From positions 1-64,000 of the IMG/VR virus record IMGVR_UViG_3300023314_000004: DNA of 64,000 bases; one strand, given 5' to 3'. Position numbers and translations under genes: made by a program. Shown here in pieces: positions 15,151-43,260 of this stretch. The stretch is from a virus. Its lineage: Duplodnaviria > Heunggongvirae > Uroviricota > Caudoviricetes. Under the pieces are notes generated by a model. It was not told where the DNA came from. It saw nothing but the letters and a program-made list of their open reading frames with translations, and ran no database searches. How positions within the stretch are numbered: position 1 is the first letter of the stretch; every line of letters begins with the position of its first letter.

Positions 15151-15924
15151 TTATGCTAACGTTCCTACTTTTTTATAAAATCCTTTACTTACATCTTTTC
15201 CTTTTACTACACTAGCTGTATACATCATTGTTGCTCCTCTAGATTCAGTGAAAGCTCTAGCAAATCCTTGAGATGTATTATCCACTGCTAATGTATTTGT
15301 TTCTTCTAAAGATAAGTCTGCTTTAATTTTAGGCATATCAGCTTTAGTTGCTACAAATGTTATAGTGAAATTTTCTTTTTCTAATTTATTAATTAAATTT
15401 GCACATAATTTCTCAAATCCTGGAAAACCATTATCTCCCCCATCTGTGTACACTTTAATTAACACTTTACTGTCTTTACCTACAGCAGAATTCATACGAT
15501 TTAAAGTAGTATATACAGTATTATATAAAGGTGTGTCTCTACCATCAGCTCCATTAAAACTTACAGTTTTAGGAACTTCGGAAAGAAAATTAGGAGTAAT
15601 TACCTTATTTTTTTGTACAAACTCAACTAAAGTATAAGTGTAATTTACATCCTTATTTCCTCTTAAATCTTCCAAACTTGATCTAATACCAGCACAAGAA
15701 TTGGTATATTTACCTCCTTGCATACTACCTGAAGCATCTAAAATATCCACTACATGAATAGTAGGTTTAACTTTTGGTTTACTTCTATTTGTTACTACAG
15801 GGGGTTTAATAACTCCATTTAAGCTATTTAAGTAGTCTTGTGCTGTTTTAAATCCTGCTTTCTGTGCCAGCTTAAGTTTATAAGCTTGATTGGCTTTTTT
15901 AAATTGTTCTAATTGTTTTGACAT
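15151..15924 (-). CDS. von Willebrand factor A (VWA) domain protein
   Basis: 257 aa. MIDAS motif …HVVDILDASGSMQG… (DxSGSM), later T…DGGDN, consistent with a VWA fold. Confidence 0.55.
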   Translation of the reverse strand: MSKQLEQFKKANQAYKLKLAQKAGFKTAQDYLNSLNGVIKPPVVTNRSKPKVKPTIHVVDILDASGSMQGGKYTNSCAGIRSSLEDLRGNKDVNYTYTLVEFVQKNKVITPNFLSEVPKTVSFNGADGRDTPLYNTVYTTLNRMNSAVGKDSKVLIKVYTDGGDNGFPGFEKLCANLINKLEKENFTITFVATKADMPKIKADLSLEETNTLAVDNTSQGFARAFTESRGATMMYTASVVKGKDVSKGFYKKVGTLA

Positions 15925-16210: not shown

Positions 16211-16618
16211 TCATTTTAAGGATTTTTTAAATGCTTCACTACATTCTTTATGAGTGGCATAAGCTGTAAATTCAGGATAAAAATAATGCATATCGTGGGG
16301 CGTACCTTTAATTATATCATCATGGCAATGTTCACAAACTTTATTACTACGTGCTCCTGTTCCCACTCCTCTACATTCATAATAATCTTCTTCTTTTAAA
16401 TATTCATGCTTTCCCTTTAACTTTTCTGAATTTTCAATTGCTTTTTTGTGTATATCTGCTCCTTCAAATGTTTCTACTGATCCAGTACATGACTCTCCCC
16501 AACCTTCGTCCATATCTTCTTGATCTCTCTCAGCATCATCTTCTGTTAAGAACCAAGCAGGGTAGGCTGATCCATCTCCTCCATTTTGAATGGAATACCA
16601 AACTATTACCTTTTTCAT
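16211..16618 (-). CDS. hypothetical Cys/His-rich protein
   Basis: 135 aa with CxxC/H clusters (…CEHCHDD…). Confidence 0.4.
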   Translation of the reverse strand: MKKVIVWYSIQNGGDGSAYPAWFLTEDDAERDQEDMDEGWGESCTGSVETFEGADIHKKAIENSEKLKGKHEYLKEEDYYECRGVGTGARSNKVCEHCHDDIIKGTPHDMHYFYPEFTAYATHKECSEAFKKSLK

Positions 16619-16821
16619 TTTAATTGATTTAATACATTTATCACTTCATCTATAGCTTCTACAGGAATTTGCATTCTTAAATAAGTGGTAGTTGAATTTG
16701 TTCTAGGATTAATTGATTCTACATCAATAACATCTCCTACTTTAGTTAAACTCAAGCCTACCTGATTTGGCCATTTAGACATTGCTACTGATTGTACTTG
16801 TCTATTATATCTTATTTCCAT
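16615..16821 (-). CDS. hypothetical protein
   Basis: 68-aa ORF between two translationally coupled neighbours. Confidence 0.35.
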   Translation of the reverse strand: MEIRYNRQVQSVAMSKWPNQVGLSLTKVGDVIDVESINPRTNSTTTYLRMQIPVEAIDEVINVLNQLK

Positions 16822-18476
16822 AATTTTTCTCTAATTTCTGTTAATGTCTGTTGATTCTCAAATTTACCATCTTCATAAATAGTCTGTAATAGTCCCTGAT
16901 TTTCTTCTTCCACTGTACATTCTTGTTTTACAGACAAATCTTCATTTACACATATGAAGCCTTTTAAAGATTTTTTAGTTCCATCTCCTGTAACAGGATC
17001 TTTATAGATGTTAAAGCCAGTTCTTATACCATCTTCTAAAGTTTCAAACCATGCTCCTTTAGCTGCATATCCGGCTGAATCTCTAGTGAGCATAATATAA
17101 GTATATGAACCTACTCCTAATACAATATTAGTAGAGGCAAATTCCTTAGCTGCTAGTCTTTCATACATTGCTATTTGTCTTTCAAGATTGATACTATCCC
17201 CATAAATAGCCCCGATGTGACTATCTAATCTTTTATAACCTTCTTTACTTTCATCTCCTCCAAATATGTCCCAAAGTAATTCTACTACACCTTTATGCCT
17301 AGGATGTAACACTACTTCACCATTAACAAGTTTTGCGTATGTATTCCCGCAAATTACAAAATCGTCACCTTCTCTAAGATGACTAGCTTTTACATCCATA
17401 GAGAGTTCTCCACAAATAATATCCACTGGATCACCTGTATCTGGACGTAATACTAATTTACCATCTCTAGCTAAAATTTCTTTTTTAAGTCTAGGAACAA
17501 TATATGTACAAGCTTTCCATGTATCAAAAGTATCACACACATAAGATAAGATACCTTTAGGAAATTTAATAAGCCAATCTCTAAGCATTAGCCATTCAGA
17601 AATAGCTAAATAATCAGGATTTTCCCTACTGCCGTCTGCCGGTAAATCAAATGAATAGTATTCTTCGATTTTATCATTTAGTAATCCAGCCTTAAGTTTA
17701 GCTTCATAATAGAAAATATTGGTGCAGCTTACACTATGTTCAGAAGCATTAACAGAATTAATACACACTTCATCCTCTGTTACATCGTAATAGTACCTAG
17801 CAGCGGATATTACATTTAAGCTATCACTACCTCTATTACTTAAAGCATGACCTAGACCTACTGCAATAGAACTAAAAGGATTACCACCTCTGCTATGAAA
17901 ATCATGGTTCATATAATCTGTAAGCCATAAATTTTCACTATCTGTCTTATTCACCCATTCTACACTATTCTTTTTAAATTGGTGTCCAATAGTAGCTGCT
18001 GTAGGCATTTGCCAAGCAAGTTTAGATATTAATGTTTCTAAAAACAACCCTAACCAAGCATATCCATCCACAGTATTAATACCTGTCATGTGAGGAATGT
18101 TAGGAGGAGTTAGTATTCCTTCAGGCAAAGCTTTAATTTTAATAGGGAGATAACCTAATTTATGTAAATCTACAAAATGTTGGGCATCATATTCCATTCC
18201 CAAGTATTTAGCCATATCCTCTCCAAATTTTTCTGCTACTTCTACAGATTGATCAAAAAACTCTTCTTGAAAAGAACTATGTAAATATCTAACAACTAAT
18301 TGTTGTCCTGCACTCATAATTTTAGTAATAGAAGGATGCATGAATTTTAAATTTCTAGGTATCCATGTCCAATATTCTTTTACAGTGGAAGGAGCTAACA
18401 TAGCTTTATGAGCAATTTTGTACCCGTCTACCTCATAAAGAGGATTGATTTTAAATGTTTTATTTAACTTTTCCAT
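16812..18476 (-). CDS. nicotinamide phosphoribosyltransferase-family enzyme (NAMPT/NadV-like; could equally be a NARP1 Namat-type enzyme)
   Basis: 554 aa. …LYEVDGYKIAHKAM… (TDSYKVTHY-like), …LVLRPDTGDPVDII… (RPDSGDP), …HIGAIYGDSI… (IQGDG). Size typical of phage NadV. Confidence 0.75.
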   Translation of the reverse strand: MEKLNKTFKINPLYEVDGYKIAHKAMLAPSTVKEYWTWIPRNLKFMHPSITKIMSAGQQLVVRYLHSSFQEEFFDQSVEVAEKFGEDMAKYLGMEYDAQHFVDLHKLGYLPIKIKALPEGILTPPNIPHMTGINTVDGYAWLGLFLETLISKLAWQMPTAATIGHQFKKNSVEWVNKTDSENLWLTDYMNHDFHSRGGNPFSSIAVGLGHALSNRGSDSLNVISAARYYYDVTEDEVCINSVNASEHSVSCTNIFYYEAKLKAGLLNDKIEEYYSFDLPADGSRENPDYLAISEWLMLRDWLIKFPKGILSYVCDTFDTWKACTYIVPRLKKEILARDGKLVLRPDTGDPVDIICGELSMDVKASHLREGDDFVICGNTYAKLVNGEVVLHPRHKGVVELLWDIFGGDESKEGYKRLDSHIGAIYGDSINLERQIAMYERLAAKEFASTNIVLGVGSYTYIMLTRDSAGYAAKGAWFETLEDGIRTGFNIYKDPVTGDGTKKSLKGFICVNEDLSVKQECTVEEENQGLLQTIYEDGKFENQQTLTEIREKLWK

Positions 18477-18868
18477 TCTTTTTGTTTTACTAATTTAACT
18501 AATAAACTTAATTCTTGGTATGTCTGAATAAGTCCGGAACGATCATCTAAAAGAGCTGAAAAGAAAGGTTTTTTAGTTTCATACCCTAAATCTATTCCTT
18601 TTCCATTAATTTCATCAAAAGGTATTTTATGTTCTACAAGAAAATTATTAACATAATCAAGATTTTTATAAGCTGTCCAACACCCTAATTTACATCCAAT
18701 ACTCTTTAATTCCCTTAAAAGATGTATTACATCTGTATGAATAGCTCCTGTTTTATGAAAATCATGGACAGTACCGTCAAAGTCGTAGCCGATGAATAGG
18801 CTTCCATATTTATTATATTCTTCTAATAGTCTTAGAAGGTTCTTATTTGGTTCTAAAAATTCATCCAT
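18464..18868 (-). CDS. small HAD-superfamily-like protein
   Basis: 134 aa. …FIGYDFDGTVHDF… matches HAD motif I (hhhDxDGT). Confidence 0.35.
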   Translation of the reverse strand: MDEFLEPNKNLLRLLEEYNKYGSLFIGYDFDGTVHDFHKTGAIHTDVIHLLRELKSIGCKLGCWTAYKNLDYVNNFLVEHKIPFDEINGKGIDLGYETKKPFFSALLDDRSGLIQTYQELSLLVKLVKQKEWKS

Positions 18869-19073
18869 TTAATGTTTCTATTATTTGTTTAGCAAATTTT
18901 CTATCTAAATTTTTCATTTCTTGCGAAAGTTCGTTATAAGATTTAAAACATTCTTTTTCCCATCTTTCTTTTCTTTCCGCAGAAATAAGGGGTTCTGATT
19001 CTAATAAAATCTTAGCCCATCCCATCCATAAATCATGGATGATAACCGCAACTAATTCTTCTTTATCTATCAT
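18861..19073 (-). CDS. hypothetical protein
   Basis: 70-aa ORF. Confidence 0.3.
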   Translation of the reverse strand: MIDKEELVAVIIHDLWMGWAKILLESEPLISAERKERWEKECFKSYNELSQEMKNLDRKFAKQIIETLNG

Positions 19074-19873
19074 ATAATTTTATATTGTGTTATAAAAGAA
19101 GACAATACTTCTTCAGGTAAATCTTTAACTGAATTTGTGCAATAAATACGATTTATACATTTATCCAAAGAACTCTCAGGATCTGTAAGTTCTAAGGGAG
19201 TGTTAAACCCTTTAGAGAAATAACCATGACTTATATATAGATTAACTACAGTAGCCCCCTGTTCTTTTAGGGCCTTAGAAAGGAGATAAAATGTATATCC
19301 TCCGTCACAAATGTCATCTATAATAAGACATGTCTTATCTTTAACATCCCCTAAAATATTTAATGATACTTTTCCTTGTAAATCCCTAAATTTATTAGCT
19401 GCTACTAAGGGTAGATCTAAGTCCTCGGCATATTTAAATACTTTCTTATAAGCTCCTGCATCAGGACTGACAAGTACTAAATTTTCCGTTCCTAAATCTT
19501 CAACAACTTGTTTTACATATTCAAAACTACTAATTTTTTCAGAATTGTTAATTAAAGCTAAAGAAACATCAGAATGAGGATCAAATATAGATACTTTTTG
19601 AAAATTCATTCTATTAATAAAATCTGTAATTTGCTTTAAGCCAAAGCTTTCATTATTAGAAAACCTTCTATCACTTCTTTGCCCAAATAAACAAGGTATT
19701 TCTAATGAATAAGCTTCTCTTGACCTATGTTTAATATCTAAAACTTCTTTTAAAGAAGCTATTTTAAATAAATCTTCATAACTATTTATTCTTTGCTTTA
19801 CAAGCCTAGTAGTAATATCTTCTGTTTCCACTTTAACATTTATCTGTCCATCAGGATATTTAATTATTTCCAT
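19070..19873 (-). CDS. ribose-phosphate pyrophosphokinase-family enzyme (Prs-like; could be an ADPR-pyrophosphate synthetase Adps-type enzyme)
   Basis: 267 aa. …LVSPDAGAYK… and PRPP-binding loop …CLIIDDICDGGYT… (hhhDDhhDTGGT-like). Confidence 0.75.
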   Translation of the reverse strand: MEIIKYPDGQINVKVETEDITTRLVKQRINSYEDLFKIASLKEVLDIKHRSREAYSLEIPCLFGQRSDRRFSNNESFGLKQITDFINRMNFQKVSIFDPHSDVSLALINNSEKISSFEYVKQVVEDLGTENLVLVSPDAGAYKKVFKYAEDLDLPLVAANKFRDLQGKVSLNILGDVKDKTCLIIDDICDGGYTFYLLSKALKEQGATVVNLYISHGYFSKGFNTPLELTDPESSLDKCINRIYCTNSVKDLPEEVLSSFITQYKII

Positions 19874-23252: not shown

Positions 23253-24158
23253 TTAAATAATTGTCATTGTTTTAAAAGAAGCTTCCATTTTAATAATTGC
23301 TGTTTCTCCTTCTCTATTTTTAATTATATGGAAATAAAGATTGGAAATATCTGTTGGTAAAGCATCTGGACCATAAGTATCTCCTACAAATTTTAATAAA
23401 TAAGGTCTATGTATGATAATAACATAATCAGAAGCTTGGAAAATACTGCTACTACTTGATAAACAAGATTGGTCTGGATAGTTTAATGGCGATTTAGGAA
23501 TTCTCCTTGAAGCACTTTCTATCTCTCTGTTTAATTGAGTGAGAAGTATATGAGTACACCATCCTTCATTTTTTTGTGCCATTATGTCTTTAGATAAATC
23601 TACTAACATTTCTCTATCTCCATTACCTGAACCTTTAAAAAGTAAGCTATGATCTGATAGGGCTATTATTTTTTTACCTGTTTTTTCATACCATCCTCTA
23701 CATATTTTAATATATTCTTCACTACTTTTAGGTTTTTCTATAAAATATATAGGTTTATCTTTTACACTTTCATAATAGGTATTAATAGCTTTTTCTTGCG
23801 TGATATTAATTGTATTTCCATTAGCAGATAACATTATTTCCCTATATATCTGAGTGTTAGCAATGGCATCTCTAATCATTAATTTAGAAGCTGGCATTTC
23901 AAAACTAAAGAAAAGAATGATAAAATCCTGTGTAGGATTATTTTCATGTAATTCTCTATATAATTGAGAAGCAAAAGCTGTTTTACCCGAACTACTCATA
24001 CCAGCAATAGTTAACATAGTTCCCATTTCTATTCCACCTAAGAGAGTTTTGTTTAACTTAGGCCAGGGAGTGATGAGAGGAGTGATAACACCAGTTTTTC
24101 TATCTTGTATTATTTGTTTAGCTTCCTTAGCTGCTTCTGATATATGTTTTCCTTCCAT
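23253..24158 (-). CDS. DnaB-like replicative helicase, C-terminal RecA-fold domain protein
   Basis: 301 aa. Walker A GMSSSGKTAFASQL, Walker B-like IIALSD. LLTQLNRE and IIIHRP resemble the DnaB motifs H3 (SQLNR) and H4 (LHRDDYY). Confidence 0.6.
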   Translation of the reverse strand: MEGKHISEAAKEAKQIIQDRKTGVITPLITPWPKLNKTLLGGIEMGTMLTIAGMSSSGKTAFASQLYRELHENNPTQDFIILFFSFEMPASKLMIRDAIANTQIYREIMLSANGNTINITQEKAINTYYESVKDKPIYFIEKPKSSEEYIKICRGWYEKTGKKIIALSDHSLLFKGSGNGDREMLVDLSKDIMAQKNEGWCTHILLTQLNREIESASRRIPKSPLNYPDQSCLSSSSSIFQASDYVIIIHRPYLLKFVGDTYGPDALPTDISNLYFHIIKNREGETAIIKMEASFKTMTII

Positions 24159-24160
24159 AA

Positions 24161-24703
24161 TTATTTTTTAGGCTCCATATTTAATCCTTCACCAAGGTAT
24201 GATCCATCTTGAATGATTCTAAAAGTTTTTACTGTAGCAAATGTTGTTATTTTTATAGTTAAATCTTTTAGACCAAAATTTTCTGCTATTATTTTACTAT
24301 TTACAAAATCTTCGATTTGTTTGGGATGAATATTTTCTATTAAATTCTCTCTAATAAATTCCCCAACAAATCCCATAGACATGCTACTAAGCGTCATTTC
24401 TGGATGATATAATGTATTATATAGTATTTGTATATCATTTATAGTGTAACCTATAGCAGATTTAATAGTCACTGTACTTCCGTCTTTTGTAGAAATAGTT
24501 TGCATAGGAATATCTATCATTCTCATTCTGGTTGTTTGTATATATGCTGTATCTATAAAAGGTATTTTTAGGTATAGCCCAGCTCCAAGTAACTTAACAT
24601 GTTTACCATTTCTTATTAATAAGGCTTGTTCCCAAGGCATAACAGTAAACCACCATTGAAATATTTTTACTAAAAAATTAGTTATTACATTAAATAATTC
24701 CAT
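24161..24703 (-). CDS. SPFH/band-7 (stomatin/prohibitin-like) domain protein with N-terminal hydrophobic segment
   Basis: 180 aa. …MPWEQALLIRNGKHVKLLGAGLYLKIPFIDTAYIQTTRMRMIDIPMQTISTKDGSTVTIKSAIGYTINDIQ… follows the SPFH consensus (PEGExAVVxRxGKxxxxLGPGLHFxIPFIDxVxxVDLRxxxLDVPPQxVITKDNVxVxVDAVVYYRVxD). Confidence 0.55.
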   Translation of the reverse strand: MELFNVITNFLVKIFQWWFTVMPWEQALLIRNGKHVKLLGAGLYLKIPFIDTAYIQTTRMRMIDIPMQTISTKDGSTVTIKSAIGYTINDIQILYNTLYHPEMTLSSMSMGFVGEFIRENLIENIHPKQIEDFVNSKIIAENFGLKDLTIKITTFATVKTFRIIQDGSYLGEGLNMEPKK

Positions 24704-40589: not shown

Positions 40590-40611
40590 TTACAAAATGA
40601 ACAGTTCTCGG

Positions 40612-40685
40612 TAGGAGTAATAGGATTTGAACCTATGACTTACATGGTATAAGCATGGTGTTCTACCAAGCTGAACTATACTCCC
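40612..40685 (-). tRNA. tRNA, anticodon UAU (tentatively tRNA-Ile reading AUA)
   Basis: Minus-strand sequence GGGAGTA-TA-GTTC-AGCTTGGTA-GAAC-A-CCATG-CTTATAC-CATGT-AAGTC-ATAGG-TTCAAAT-CCTAT-TACTCCT-A folds as a canonical cloverleaf: 7-bp acceptor stem with G1·U72, D stem GTTC/GAAC, T loop TTCAAAT, U33, purine 37. One C27·U43 mismatch. Followed by CC then G, so CCA is not fully encoded. Confidence 0.7.
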
Positions 40686-40692
40686 ATTTTAG

Positions 40693-41373
40693 TTAGATAT
40701 TGAAAATATTGCCTTGAGAAGAAAGTTTACCAAATTTGCCATCAGTTACTACAGATCCATTACTAAACATAGTTTTATAACCTGATAGGTCTAATGTACC
40801 AGCATTAATAATATCTTCACAATTATGTATATGACCAAAACACATAAGTTCAGGTTGTATATCCAACACTCTTCTTTTAAGAGATTGACAACCACACCTT
40901 TCATATACATTACCTTGAGGACTGTAAGAATGGTCTAATATTCCTTTTGGTGGTCCATGAGTTATGATAATATTTACATCCTCAGGTATTGTGGACCAAA
41001 CATTATGAGTTTTATCTCTGGCTTTATTAAAAGCCCATCCTTCCCCAAATGTAGGTGTAATAGGACTTCCCCATATTTTTAGTCCTTCTACGATAACATG
41101 ACTATTTTCTAGGTAAGTAATACCCATACTGGCTAATTCATGTTTAGTTATCATACCTCTCTCAAATGCAATATCGTGATTACCAGCTATTAATACCTTA
41201 TGCTTAATATTTAAGCTTTCTAACCAAGCAATAGCATCTCTACATTCATTATTAGAAATAACAGGAATTTTACTATTCCCTACATCTCCTGAATGTATGA
41301 GCATATCAACATCTTTAGGTATATTTAATAGTCCATGATAACCATGTGTATCTGAAATATGCCAGATTTTCAT
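40693..41373 (-). CDS. calcineurin-like metallophosphoesterase
   Basis: 226 aa. Motifs in order: DTHG (…HISDTHGY…), GD (…HSGDVGN…), GNHD (…IAGNHDI…), …ITHGPP…, …CFGHIHN…. Confidence 0.7.
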   Translation of the reverse strand: MKIWHISDTHGYHGLLNIPKDVDMLIHSGDVGNSKIPVISNNECRDAIAWLESLNIKHKVLIAGNHDIAFERGMITKHELASMGITYLENSHVIVEGLKIWGSPITPTFGEGWAFNKARDKTHNVWSTIPEDVNIIITHGPPKGILDHSYSPQGNVYERCGCQSLKRRVLDIQPELMCFGHIHNCEDIINAGTLDLSGYKTMFSNGSVVTDGKFGKLSSQGNIFNI

Positions 41374-42759: not shown

Positions 42760-43260
42760 TTAAATGTTAGAAAATTTAAATAATAATGGATTAATTCTAA
42801 TTACAGGAACTTGTTGTTTTTTAATATGAAAGGCATAATCATAGCAATTCTTAGTTCCTCCTGCTGATCCATCCCAAATAGCTAATAGAATATCACAATT
42901 GTCTGACATCCAGACATTACGAGCTTGCATACAACTATTAGTGTATGGTTTCTCACTAACATAATATTTAGTACATAGGGGATGATTAACTATTCTATTA
43001 TACCTATCCTGAGACTTTTTAGGCCACATTTTCTCTTGGTCTTTACAAGGAATGGCAGCTATAAATGGAATGTTATTAATAATAGCCATTTCAGCCCATA
43101 ACATATCCACTCCTAAAGCCATACCTGTAATAATTTGTGTAGGTTTATGGTCTTTAATTACTTCAGCCATTCTATCTCTAATGGCATCAGAATATTTACC
43201 TATTCCATCATATTCATTACCAAGTTTGTTAGGTCTATGACCTGTTACAGCTATTTTCAT
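42760..43260 (-). CDS. YpsA/DUF1273-like SLOG-superfamily (SMF/DprA-LOG) nucleotide-binding protein
   Basis: 166 aa. N-terminus MKIAVTGHRPNKLG… and …IITGMALGVDMLWAEMAI… fit the YpsA-type SLOG Rossmann pattern (AVTGhRP…G…G.D). Confidence 0.45.
   Translation of the reverse strand: MKIAVTGHRPNKLGNEYDGIGKYSDAIRDRMAEVIKDHKPTQIITGMALGVDMLWAEMAIINNIPFIAAIPCKDQEKMWPKKSQDRYNRIVNHPLCTKYYVSEKPYTNSCMQARNVWMSDNCDILLAIWDGSAGGTKNCYDYAFHIKKQQVPVIRINPLLFKFSNI

What the first reader, a model, noticed from the sequence alone, without database searches (positions are those of the whole stretch)
16812..19873. NAMPT-family plus Prs-family enzyme pair without an NMNAT: candidate NAD+ reconstitution (NARP1-like) anti-defence module
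The sequence shows a 554-aa NAMPT-type enzyme (…EVDGYKIAHKAM…, …RPDTGDP…, …IYGDSI…) and a 267-aa PRPP-synthetase-family enzyme (…LVSPDAGA…, …IIDDICDGGYT…). They sit in the same minus-strand operon, separated only by a HAD-motif protein (DFDGT) and a 70-aa ORF. I could not find an H-x-G-H nucleotidyltransferase (NMNAT/NadM/NatV) anywhere in the 64 kb. Classical phage NAD salvage (NadV plus NMNAT, often with Prs) needs NMNAT. The recently described NARP1 pathway uses exactly a Prs homologue (Adps, making ADPR-PP) plus a NAMPT homologue (Namat) to rebuild NAD+ from ADP-ribose and nicotinamide, defeating NAD-depleting defences (Thoeris, DSR, SIR2-HerA, SEFIR). The gene content here fits that pair better than classical salvage. 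The co-embedded HAD-like protein is not part of the published pathway and could be a new accessory, for example a phosphatase acting on an intermediate.
Basis: partly seen in the sequence, partly recalled or inferred. Interest (0 to 1): 0.75.

Follow-up and report, generated by a model that had tools for sequence, protein, structure and literature searches.

The report
Extended phage NAD+ rebuilding operon
This phage carries the known two-enzyme pathway that rebuilds NAD+ after bacterial defences destroy it, plus two small helper genes; one helper, a tiny HAD phosphatase, recurs in many unrelated phages and I found no description of it in the papers searched.

Summary
Four overlapping minus-strand genes lie at 16812-19873: a 267-aa Prs-family protein, a 70-aa ORF, a 134-aa HAD-motif protein and a 554-aa NAMPT-family protein. 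No NMNAT is detectable in the 64 kb.

The NARP1 reading is supported.
- The 554-aa protein scores 297 bits to the SpβL1 Namat crystal structure, about 113 to cellular NAMPT and 117 to a KVP40-like NARP2 Nampt. It carries the Namat clamp motif in a variant form.
- The 267-aa protein fails every curated Prs model. It shares DPHS and DDICDGG motifs with validated Adps enzymes.

It is a truncated RyR/R12-domain protein. It sits between Adps and Namat, the same position as RyDEP, the cADPR-cleaving or cADPR-sponging protein of phage DyoEdafos.

The HAD-like protein is a capless HAD phosphatase with all catalytic motifs invariant. In 11 of 12 sampled lineages it lies next to Adps, with varying gene order. 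It occupies the slot that the Macro phosphatase Adpp holds in sister operons, and never co-occurs with it. No paper I searched mentions it.

I read the locus as NARP1 with two accessories. The HAD is probably a non-homologous counterpart of Adpp. Its substrate is inferred, not shown.

The parts
19070..19873 (-). Adps candidate (267 aa). A Prs-family ADP-ribose pyrophosphokinase predicted to make ADPR-PP from ADPR and ATP. The predicted catalytic Lys is K161.
   Evidence: Pfam Pribosyltran and Pribosyl_synth, PHROG 619. It falls below all curated Prs cut-offs: TIGR01251 scores 101.9 against a cut-off of 113, while E. coli Prs scores 422.7 and validated DyoEdafos Adps 81.7. It shares DPHS, PDAGA and DDICDGGxTF with Adps of DyoEdafos, Gary and the Bas63-like wV8, against DLHA, PDIGG and DDMIDTGGT in E. 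coli Prs. Its nearest phage relatives are NARP1-linked.
18861..19073 (-). Mini RyR/R12-domain protein (70 aa), RyDEP-like. Predicted to bind, and possibly hydrolyse, 2'cADPR and 3'cADPR Thoeris signals.
   Evidence: Pfam RyR scores 20.7 bits at E 4.9e-4, below the gathering score of 27.4. Four close homologues carry precomputed PF02026 hits. It matches the B. thetaiotaomicron RyR-like protein in PDB. The AF2 model has pLDDT 94, and all top 50 Foldseek PDB hits are RyR repeats. H13, W16 and D57 are invariant and map onto RyDEP H75, W78 and D117 through the Pfam profile. It holds the same operon position as DyoEdafos gp78. Homologues are embedded in, or lie directly upstream of Namat in, NARP1 operons of five other lineages.
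18464..18868 (-). Capless (C0) HAD-superfamily phosphatase (134 aa), a NARP1-associated accessory. Predicted to dephosphorylate a phosphorylated ADPR derivative to ADPR.
16812..18476 (-). Namat candidate (554 aa). A NAMPT-family nicotinamide ADP-ribose transferase predicted to make NAD+ from ADPR-PP and nicotinamide.
   Evidence: It scores 296.6 bits to 9W5X/9W5W (SpβL1 Namat) against about 113 to human NAMPT. It scores 250-310 bits to NARP1-type phage proteins and 88-134 bits to KVP40-like and T4-like Nampt. It nests among Adps-linked Namats in an NJ tree. The SCH motif is GSYTYIMLTRD and the SCL is PRNLK43F44. Core residues F193, D218, H247 and R344 are conserved.

Best explanation
The locus is a four-gene counter-defence operon built on NAD+ reconstitution pathway 1 (NARP1).

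- The 267-aa Prs-like enzyme (Adps) pyrophosphorylates ADP-ribose with ATP to give ADPR-PP.
- The 554-aa NAMPT-like enzyme (Namat) joins ADPR-PP to nicotinamide to remake NAD+. This undoes NAD+ depletion by TIR, SIR2 or SEFIR-type defences.
[quoted passage not shown] It either sequesters them or hydrolyses them to linear ADPR.
- The 134-aa capless HAD phosphatase removes a phosphate from a phosphorylated ADP-ribose species. The most likely substrate is ADPR-1''-phosphate made by aRES-type RES NADases, which NARP1 cannot use. The product would be ADPR. On this reading the HAD is a non-homologous counterpart of the Macro-domain phosphatase Adpp of NARP1-AP.

Shown here by computation: family and clade placement of all four proteins, conserved catalytic residues, operon structure and recurrent linkage.

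Inferred: every enzymatic activity, the HAD substrate, and whether the mini-RyR is a sponge or a glycosidase.
For: Namat:
- 297 bits to the SpβL1 Namat structure against about 113 to cellular NAMPT.
- tblastn scores are bimodal: 194-568 bits to NARP1-type proteins and 88-134 to KVP40-like or T4-like NARP2 Nampt.
- In the NJ tree it groups at 100% bootstrap with other Adps-linked proteins. The KVP40-like outgroup carries GGGLLQQLDRD instead of the Namat motif.
- The SCH skeleton GS-Y-T-Y-x-x-x-TRD and the SCL Lys-then-aromatic pattern fit the published signature.

Adps:
- Below every curated Prs threshold, like validated DyoEdafos Adps.
- Carries the clade motifs shared with validated Adps of DyoEdafos, Gary and the Bas63 genus.
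- 97% of Adps-clade genes have Namat within ten genes. Here the two are 0.6 kb apart.

No NMNAT in the window.

Mini-RyR. It has the same position as RyDEP gp78, whose product ADPR feeds NARP1 in vitro.

HAD:
- Catalytic motifs invariant and HAD fold.
- Next to Adps in window, L001, cr126_1, ALPS, L008, L009, L011, L012, DAC17, Phass-1 and Lak-A1, with changing gene order. By coordinates also in Belinda and BPS13.
- In the sister operon L029 (Adps 57% and RyR 69% identical) a Macro Adpp homologue sits in the slot where the window has the HAD.
- No sampled operon has both.
- The published list of 129 Macro-linked NARP1 operons contains no Bacillus, Bacteroides, Prevotella or uncultured/crAss phage. 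Those are the groups that carry the HAD.
- A supplementary table of IMG genes, which I take to be the aRES list, includes Bacillus cereus, B. thetaiotaomicron and Prevotella. These are hosts of HAD-carrying phages.
Against: - No activity was measured.
- The Namat SCH motif departs from the consensus. Position 7, an adenine-stacking aromatic (Y396 in SpβL1), is Met. Φ2 and Φ3 are Ile and Leu instead of Gln/Asn and Asn/Val.
- By pairwise score the Adps candidate is no closer to DyoEdafos Adps (40 bits) than to E. coli Prs (54 bits). The Adps tree has a single Prs outgroup and weak deep bootstraps.
- The mini-RyR is below the Pfam gathering score. It shows no significant BLASTP or hhalign match to RyDEP itself. 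It lacks the RyDEP N-terminal 60 residues, and the position of phosphate-binding H100 is not conserved.
- Only one of nine tested RyDEP-family proteins is catalytic.
- The HAD substrate rests on context alone. The nearest structures are uncharacterised (2OBB, 1XPJ).
- One HAD homologue (LR756501) has no Adps or Namat within 6 kb.
- About 58 kb of the genome was not seen.
Confidence: 0.7

Rival explanations
1. Classical NAD+ salvage. The 267-aa protein is a true PRPP synthetase and the 554-aa protein a true Nampt making NMN. NAD+ is then completed by a host NMNAT (NadD or NadR) or by a phage NMNAT encoded outside the window.
For: Both proteins belong to the Prs and NAMPT families. Namat keeps NMN-forming activity in vitro. 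The SCH adenine clamp is degenerate at position 7. About 58 kb of the genome is unseen.
Against: The 267-aa protein fails all curated Prs models. The 554-aa protein is far closer to Namat than to NARP2 or cellular Nampt. No NMNAT is in the window. In the published survey no phage carried both NARP1 and NARP2, and Bas63 did not need host PncC or NadR. A RyR-domain protein between the two genes makes sense only for an ADPR-based pathway.
Confidence: 0.07
2. The HAD phosphatase serves NARP1 but acts on a substrate other than ADPR-1''P. Examples are 2'-phospho-ADPR released when NADases cleave NADP+, NADP+ itself, ADPR-1''P arising from the breakdown product ADPR-cyclic phosphate, or the pyrophosphate released by Namat.
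Against: Nothing distinguishes these substrates from ADPR-1''P. The slot exchange with Macro Adpp and the complementary distribution favour the same job as Adpp.
Confidence: 0.2
3. The HAD phosphatase has nothing to do with NAD+. It is either the 3'-phosphatase half of a split polynucleotide kinase/phosphatase for RNA repair, or a nucleotide-pool 5'-nucleotidase such as a MisB-like m6dAMP phosphatase that silences Metis. It sits beside NARP1 only because counter-defence genes cluster.
Against: The HAD is always directly next to or between Adps and Namat, never next to the ligase or kinase. The window, ALPS, cr126_1 and DAC17 loci show no RNA ligase or AAA_33 nearby. Linkage survives three different gene orders in distant phage families. 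MisB carries Pfam PF13419; the window protein has no HAD Pfam hit.
Confidence: 0.12

Closest known systems
NARP1 (Adps + Namat; Osterman et al., bioRxiv 10.1101/2024.02.11.579819; Namat structure PMC12774641)
   Same: It is a Prs-family gene plus a NAMPT-family gene in one operon of a phage. The Namat clade, catalytic residues and clamp skeleton match. The Adps clade motifs match. There is no NMNAT.
   Different: Two extra genes sit between the core genes. The Namat SCH reads GSYTYIMLTRD, with Met in place of the second adenine-stacking aromatic. Relative to SpβL1 Namat there are two insertions (about aa 254-303 and 358-393). The operon is mosaic: Adps is nearest L009 and L029, Namat is nearest L001.
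RyDEP (DyoEdafos gp78; bioRxiv 10.64898/2026.05.28.727677)
   Same: It is a RyR/R12-domain protein encoded between Adps and Namat. Equivalents of H75, W78 and D117 are conserved (H13, W16, D57).
   Different: It has 70 aa against 138. It lacks the N-terminal part that I infer holds helix α1, which contributes to the RyDEP dimer interface (inferred from the model's three helices and the paper's description). The H100 position is variable. There is no significant direct sequence match. It is not in any PHROG. Whether it is a sponge or a glycosidase is unknown.
NARP1-AP (Adps + Macro-domain Adpp + Namat; bioRxiv 10.64898/2026.01.28.702374)
   Same: A small phosphatase gene sits inside the NARP1 operon. 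In sister operons it occupies the same slot (L029, L016).
   Different: The fold is unrelated: a capless HAD rather than a Macro domain. The substrate is untested. The two are found in different phage groups (Bacillus Herelleviridae, crAss-like, Lak and related environmental phages for the HAD).
Minimal capless HAD phosphatases (2OBB BT_0820, 1XPJ, T4 Pnkp phosphatase domain, phage HY126 AfhF 9IQW, MDP-1)
   Same: It has the Rossmannoid HAD core with DxDxT, T, K and DD motifs, no cap, and about 120-140 aa.
   Different: Sequence similarity is at noise level (best profile E 0.07 to 2OBB). None of these is linked to NAD+ or ADPR metabolism.

Membership tests
NARP1 | The Prs-family protein belongs to the phage Adps clade, separate from cellular Prs. 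| tested here: met
   It fails all curated Prs models. TIGR01251 scores 101.9 against a cut-off of 113 and the equivalogs score 50-93 against cut-offs of 296-536, whereas E. coli Prs scores 423-533. It shares DPHS, PDAGA and DDICDGGxTF with validated Adps. Caveat: only one cellular Prs was in the tree.
NARP1 | A Namat homologue lies within ten genes of Adps. | tested here: met
   The two are three genes and 0.6 kb apart, on the same strand with overlapping ORFs.
NARP1 | The NAMPT-family protein falls in the Adps-associated Namat clade, not the Nampt (NARP2 or cellular) clade. | tested here: met
   PDB scores are 297 bits to Namat against 113 bits to NAMPT. tblastn scores are bimodal. The NJ tree uses a KVP40-like outgroup.
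NARP1 | Namat SCH signature GS-X-Φ1-X-Φ2-X-Φ3-TRD, with aromatics at positions 3 and 7. | tested here: inconclusive
   The window has GSYTYIMLTRD. The skeleton, Tyr at position 3, Thr at Φ1 and TRD are met. Position 7 is Met, and Φ2 and Φ3 are Ile and Leu. The same variant occurs in L001.
NARP1 | The SCL loop supplies a stacking residue: Arg at the third position, or Lys/Tyr followed by the stacking residue. | tested here: met
   The window has PR-N-L-K43-F44, which is Lys followed by Phe. This is judged by sequence pattern only, not by structure.
NARP1 | Catalytic residues are present: the Adps Lys (SpβL1 K162, Gary K192) and the Namat residues F189, D215, H245 and R306 in SpβL1 numbering. 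| tested here: met
   K161 in Adps. F193, D218, H247 and R344 in Namat.
NARP1 | Activities: ADPR + ATP gives ADPR-PP, and ADPR-PP + nicotinamide gives NAD+. | not testable with these tools
   This needs biochemistry.
NARP2 (Nampt + Nmnat) | An Nmnat (HxGH nucleotidyltransferase) is in the genome. | tested here: not met
   None is in the 64-kb window. The remaining roughly 58 kb is unseen.
RyDEP / RyR R12-domain family (PF02026) | Match to the Pfam RyR domain. | tested here: inconclusive
   The window protein scores 20.7 bits against a gathering score of 27.4. Homologues at 69-81% identity carry precomputed PF02026 hits marked weak. The fold search returns only RyR repeats, with E 0.2-2 and probability up to 0.99.
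RyDEP / RyR R12-domain family (PF02026) | Ligand and catalytic residues H75, W78, H100 and D117. | tested here: inconclusive
   H13, W16 and D57 are invariant in 8 sequences. The H100 equivalent (around K40) is variable. The mapping goes through the Pfam profile coordinates.
RyDEP / RyR R12-domain family (PF02026) | Encoded inside a NARP1 operon. | tested here: met
   It lies between Adps and Namat here. Homologues lie in NARP1 operons directly upstream of Namat in L014, L015, L016/17, L029 and L030, and gp78 does so in DyoEdafos.
NARP1-AP | A Macro-domain ADPR-1''P phosphatase (Adpp) is in the operon. | tested here: not met
   There is no Macro domain in the window and no tblastn match to Gary Adpp. 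A HAD phosphatase occupies the slot.
HAD superfamily phosphatase | Motifs I-IV (DxDxT, S/T, K, DD) and the Rossmannoid fold. | tested here: met

The most novel reading that the evidence does not exclude
The NARP1-embedded capless HAD phosphatase defines a second, independently evolved 'NARP1 with associated phosphatase' pathway. If its substrate is not ADPR-1''P, it would also point to a bacterial defence that destroys NAD+ or NADP+ into a phosphorylated ADP-ribose species not yet described. The phage would convert that species back to ADPR. The window's four-gene operon (Adps, mini-RyR, HAD, Namat) would then funnel three different defence products (linear ADPR, cyclic ADPR signals and a phospho-ADPR) into one NAD+-rebuilding route.
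Probability: 0.25. Interest if true: 0.8.

Novelty: new variant of a known kind. Interest (0 to 1): 0.6.

Why it matters
NAD+ depletion is among the most common bacterial anti-phage strategies. NARP1 is the main known phage answer to it, and its published weak point is that it needs plain ADPR.

A phosphatase of unrelated fold occupies the Adpp slot in Bacillus Herelleviridae, in gut crAss-like phages (including isolates on Bacteroides thetaiotaomicron), in Lak megaphages and in environmental phages. This suggests that phages solved the same problem at least twice.

It gives a directly testable candidate for how these phage groups cope with RES-type or other non-canonical NAD+ cleavage. It would also correct a propagated label: 'phosphoheptose isomerase' in PHROG 1238 and in RefSeq phage records.

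The 70-aa RyR protein is the smallest member so far of a family just shown to sponge or cleave Thoeris signals. It could help define the minimal ligand-binding unit.

Tried and rejected
1. megablast of the locus against phage genomes found no match. The phage has no close sequenced relative. The best TerL match is Leptolyngbya phage Lbo-JY46 at 40% identity, followed by Cellulophaga phi4:1-like and crAss-like phages.

2. I tried to reach the rest of the 122-kb source contig to look for NMNAT. The exact-protein look-up returned only a 1.3-kb Logan contig. Exact 37-mer scans of the metagenome and viral collections found nothing.

3. Fetching KVP40 NadV by guessing coordinates gave the structural region instead. 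I used the KVP40-like phage PC-Liy1 in its place.

4. Direct BLASTP and hhalign of the mini-RyR against RyDEP gp78 were not significant. Homology rests on the shared Pfam profile, the fold and the context.

5. The identity of PDB 9KE8/9KEO (2e-78 to the 554-aa protein, motif GAQTYQRNTRD) could not be established from the literature. I did not use it as evidence.

6. The HAD profile against PDB sequences matched only uncharacterised 2OBB at E 0.07, which says nothing about substrate.

7. The promoter and terminator scan gave counts at chance level.

8. I considered whether P0052 (219 aa) is a RyR-HAD fusion. Its extension is C-terminal and unrelated.

9. NARP3 (PnuC + NadR) was considered. It is irrelevant here, since no such domains are in the window.


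Full report
**1. What is there**

Four ORFs lie at the reported coordinates on the minus strand. In the direction of transcription they are:
- 267 aa at 19070-19873
- 70 aa at 18861-19073
- 134 aa at 18464-18868
- 554 aa at 16812-18476

Successive genes overlap by 4, 8 and 13 nt. The flanking ORFs, a Helicase_C protein upstream and a 68-aa ORF downstream, overlap by 10 nt each. This is one tightly packed co-directional block.

The window has about 30% G+C. Early and replication genes run on the minus strand up to about 46 kb, and structural genes run on the plus strand after that.

The structural region includes a Crassvirus-type capsid protein. The terminase is most similar to Leptolyngbya phage Lbo-JY46 (40% identity), then to Cellulophaga phi4:1-like and crAss-like phages. 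The source contig is about 122 kb. I could not retrieve the remainder.

**2. The 554-aa protein is a Namat**

- Against PDB sequences the best matches are 9W5X and 9W5W at 2.8e-87 and 297 bits. These are the SpβL1 Namat structures. Human and bacterial NAMPT score about 113-116 bits.
- Against phage genomes the scores are bimodal. NARP1-type proteins, including Vibrio phage Gary and the mycobacteriophages, give 194-310 bits, and Lbo-JY46 gives 568. T4-like and KVP40-like Nampt proteins give 88-134 bits.
- In an NJ tree the protein groups with L001 (100% bootstrap) and then with Lbo-JY46 and L016 (100%). It sits inside the set of Adps-linked proteins that includes validated DyoEdafos and Gary Namat and the Bas63-genus protein. 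The KVP40-like Nampt is on a long branch.
- The published Namat signature is GS-X-Φ1-X-Φ2-X-Φ3-TRD, with adenine-stacking aromatics at positions 3 and 7 (F392 and Y396 in SpβL1). The window has GSYTYIMLTRD. The skeleton and the first aromatic are kept, but position 7 is Met and the two polar Φ positions are Ile and Leu. L001 shares this variant (GSFTYVMLTRD), while the sister sequences have the canonical GSFTYQ[YF]NTRD. The variant is therefore derived within this small clade.
- The SCL loop reads PRNLK43F44. This fits the published 'Lys followed by the stacking residue' alternative.
- Core residues F193, D218, H247 and R344 are conserved.
- The curated NCBIfam NadV-type model is missed, at 346.5 bits against a cut-off of 405.

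**3. The 267-aa protein is an Adps**

- It belongs to the Prs family but fails every curated Prs model. TIGR01251 scores 101.9 against a cut-off of 113, and the equivalog models score 50-93 bits against cut-offs of 296-536. E. coli Prs scores 423-533, and biochemically validated DyoEdafos Adps scores 81.7.
- In an alignment of 15 NARP1-linked proteins plus E. coli Prs, it shares DPHS, PDAGA and DDICDGGxTF with the Adps of DyoEdafos, Gary and Felixounavirus wV8. Felixounavirus is the genus of Bas63, from my own knowledge. E. coli Prs has DLHA, PDIGG and DDMIDTGGT instead. The window protein also lacks the Prs N- and C-terminal extensions.
- K161 aligns with the catalytic Lys that was mutated in SpβL1 (K162) and Gary (K192).
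- Its closest relatives are L009 and L029 (56-57% identity), and both are in NARP1 operons.

Caveats. Its pairwise score to DyoEdafos Adps (40 bits) is no better than to E. coli Prs (54 bits). My tree has one cellular outgroup and weak deep nodes. Clade membership therefore rests on motifs, thresholds and context rather than on a resolved phylogeny.

**4. No NMNAT in the window**

No H-x-G-H occurs in any stop-free stretch of 80 aa or more in six frames. No CTP_transf_like, Nudix, NadR or PnuC hit appears among the other 98 ORFs. The published survey found no phage with both NARP1 and NARP2.

**5. The 70-aa ORF is a RyR-domain protein**

The evidence is individually weak but convergent:
- Pfam RyR scores 20.7 bits, E 4.9e-4, below the gathering score.
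- It matches the B. thetaiotaomicron 'putative ryanodine receptor' in PDB.
- Four of seven close homologues carry precomputed PF02026 hits.
- The AlphaFold model has pLDDT 94, and its top 50 Foldseek hits in PDB are all RyR repeats. They include human RyR3 Repeat12 bound to ADP, with E 0.2-2 and probability up to 0.99.

A 2026 preprint shows that DyoEdafos gp78 (RyDEP) is a RyR-domain protein encoded between Adps and Namat. It hydrolyses 2'cADPR and 3'cADPR to linear ADPR, which NARP1 then converts to NAD+. Most other family members that were tested bind the signals as sponges.

Using the Pfam profile as a common ruler, RyDEP H75, W78 and D117 correspond to H13, W16 and D57. These three residues are invariant in the 8-member family. 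The H100 position is not conserved.

The window protein corresponds to roughly RyDEP residues 63-130 and has three helices. I infer that the part holding RyDEP helix α1 is missing.

Direct BLASTP and hhalign comparisons to gp78 are not significant, and the family is in no PHROG.

Homologues lie inside NARP1 operons, directly upstream of Namat, in L014, L015, L016/17, L029 and L030. Sponge or enzyme cannot be decided from sequence.

**6. The 134-aa protein is a capless HAD phosphatase tied to NARP1**

- It has no Pfam or NCBIfam hit. PHROG 1238 labels it 'phosphoheptose isomerase', which looks like a mislabel.
- 276 homologues were found. In an alignment of 47 sequences, D29, D31, T33, T65, K100, D108 and D109 are invariant. 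These are HAD motifs I-IV.

Context of the homologues:

| Locus | Gene order |
|---|---|
| Window | Adps-RyR-HAD-Namat |
| L001 | Namat-Adps-HAD |
| crAss-like cr126_1 | Namat-HAD-Adps |
| B. thetaiotaomicron phage DAC17 | Namat-HAD-Adps |
| Bacillus phage ALPS | Adps-Namat-HAD |
| L008, L011 | Adps-HAD-Namat |
| L009 | Adps-x-HAD-EndoVII-Namat |
| L012 | HAD-Namat-Adps |
| Phass-1 | PncA-Adps-Namat-HAD |
| Lak-A1 | HAD-Adps |
| LR756501 (735 kb) | HAD alone, the only exception |

By coordinates, the HAD and Namat genes are also adjacent in Bacillus phages Belinda and BPS13. The HAD is therefore adjacent to Adps in 11 of 12 sampled lineages, across at least four unrelated phage groups and several gene orders.

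**7. What the HAD may do**

The aRES preprint shows three things. RES-domain defences cleave NAD+ to nicotinamide and ADPR-1''-phosphate. NARP1 cannot use that product. And 15% of NARP1 operons carry a Macro-domain phosphatase, Adpp, that restores ADPR.

That paper mentions no HAD protein. My literature searches found no paper linking NARP1 to a HAD enzyme.

Three observations suggest the HAD is a non-homologous counterpart of Adpp.

(a) Slot exchange. L029 is Adps-RyR-Macro-x-Namat, with Adps 57% and RyR 69% identical to the window's. The Macro protein sits exactly where the window has the HAD. L016/17 and L030 also combine the mini-RyR with an Adpp homologue. These Macro proteins are 32-35% identical to Gary Adpp, and the L016 protein falls with it in PHROG 335.

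(b) No sampled operon has both.

(c) Complementary distribution. The published table of 129 Macro-linked NARP1 operons, drawn from INPHARED of May 2023, contains no Bacillus, Bacteroides, Prevotella or uncultured/crAss entries. The 81 phage records with the HAD are Bacillus 54, Prevotella 15, uncultured 6, Bacteroides 3 and three others.

In addition, a supplementary table of IMG genes with taxonomy includes Bacillus cereus, B. thetaiotaomicron and Prevotella. I take this to be the paper's aRES list, based on the methods.

All of this is circumstantial, and the substrate is inferred. Alternatives are:
- 2'-phospho-ADPR or NADP+
- breakdown products of ADPR-PP
- pyrophosphate
- an unrelated role as a Pnkp-like 3'-phosphatase
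- a MisB-like m6dAMP phosphatase

The unrelated-role models are weakened because the HAD is never adjacent to RNA ligase or kinase genes, and the window has neither.

**8. Other features**

The operon is mosaic. Adps and the HAD are nearest L009 (56% and 66% identity), the RyR is nearest L015, L016 and L030 (78-81%), and Namat is nearest L001 (68%).

NARP1 operons in this sample also collect other ADPR-related genes. These are a NADAR-domain protein in L030, a PHROG 2072 protein in L014 and a nicotinamidase in Phass-1. This supports the view that inserted genes process ADPR-related molecules.

**9. Verdict**

The core pathway is known, and the RyR partner is known from a 2026 preprint, although this is a much shorter form.

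The recurrent HAD phosphatase is, as far as the held literature shows, undescribed. It is the interesting part. I class the locus as a new variant of a known kind. Within my sample it is the only operon combining both accessories.

Noticed in passing
window 42760-43260 (-): A stand-alone 166-aa YpsA/SLOG plus DprA-like protein (Pfam YpsA 2e-11, DNA_processg_A 5.9e-9). SLOG domains bind nucleotide-derived ligands; from my own knowledge, ThsA uses one to sense cADPR. A sponge role is conceivable. DyoEdafos also has a small DprA-like gene, gp89.
   Followed up: no
window 40610-41373 (-): A calcineurin-like Metallophos phosphoesterase (226 aa, E 1.7e-12) lies directly next to the only tRNA in the window, tRNA-Ile(tat) at 40610-40685.
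   Followed up: no
window 23253-24703 (-): A DnaB-like helicase and an SPFH/Band_7 protein lie about 4 kb upstream of the operon. An SPFH gene also sits next to NARP1 in crAss cr126_1 and immediately after Namat in L008. This may be conserved synteny of the replication module or a functional link.
   Followed up: partly
window 16812-19873 compared with L001, L009, L015, L016, L029, L030: The operon is mosaic. Adps and the HAD are nearest L009 and L029, the RyR is nearest L015, L016 and L030, and Namat is nearest L001. Gene order differs between relatives. This suggests frequent recombination within NARP1 operons.
   Followed up: partly
window 17106-17138 (-), Namat aa 447-457: The Namat adenine-clamp helix reads GSYTYIMLTRD where sister sequences have GS[FY]TYQ[YFH]NTRD. 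This is a hydrophobic Ile-Met-Leu triplet shared only with L001. The effect on ADPR-PP against PRPP selectivity is unknown.
   Followed up: partly
L030 1129-1578; L014 6680-7117; L027 1896-2441; L008 10391-10837: Other genes are attached to NARP1 operons elsewhere. They are a NADAR-domain protein, a PHROG 2072 protein with an FGSN..G.HG.GAA motif, a nicotinamidase in Phass-1 and a 148-aa cytidylyltransferase-like protein with LLHTGH three genes after Namat in a 288-kb phage contig. The last one is not obviously an NMNAT but was not examined further.
   Followed up: no
window 18464-18868 (-) and RefSeq phage records: PHROG 1238 and many RefSeq phage records label this HAD family 'phosphoheptose isomerase'. 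The fold and motifs are HAD phosphatase, not a SIS isomerase, so this is probably a propagated mislabel.
   Followed up: yes
window 16211-16821 (-): Two small ORFs directly downstream of Namat (68 aa and 135 aa, the latter with a Cys/His-rich C-terminal half) have no Pfam hit, and the 135-aa ORF no PHROG hit either. The 68-aa ORF overlaps the Namat stop by 10 nt. Whether they belong to the module is unknown. They are not seen next to Namat in L001.
   Followed up: partly
window 15151-15924 (-): A 257-aa ORF four genes after Namat contains a DxSxS-like 'DILDASGSM' motif typical of VWA/MIDAS domains, but has no Pfam hit at E 0.001 or below. L014 has a Pfam VWA protein two genes after the PHROG 2072 gene that follows Namat.
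   Followed up: no
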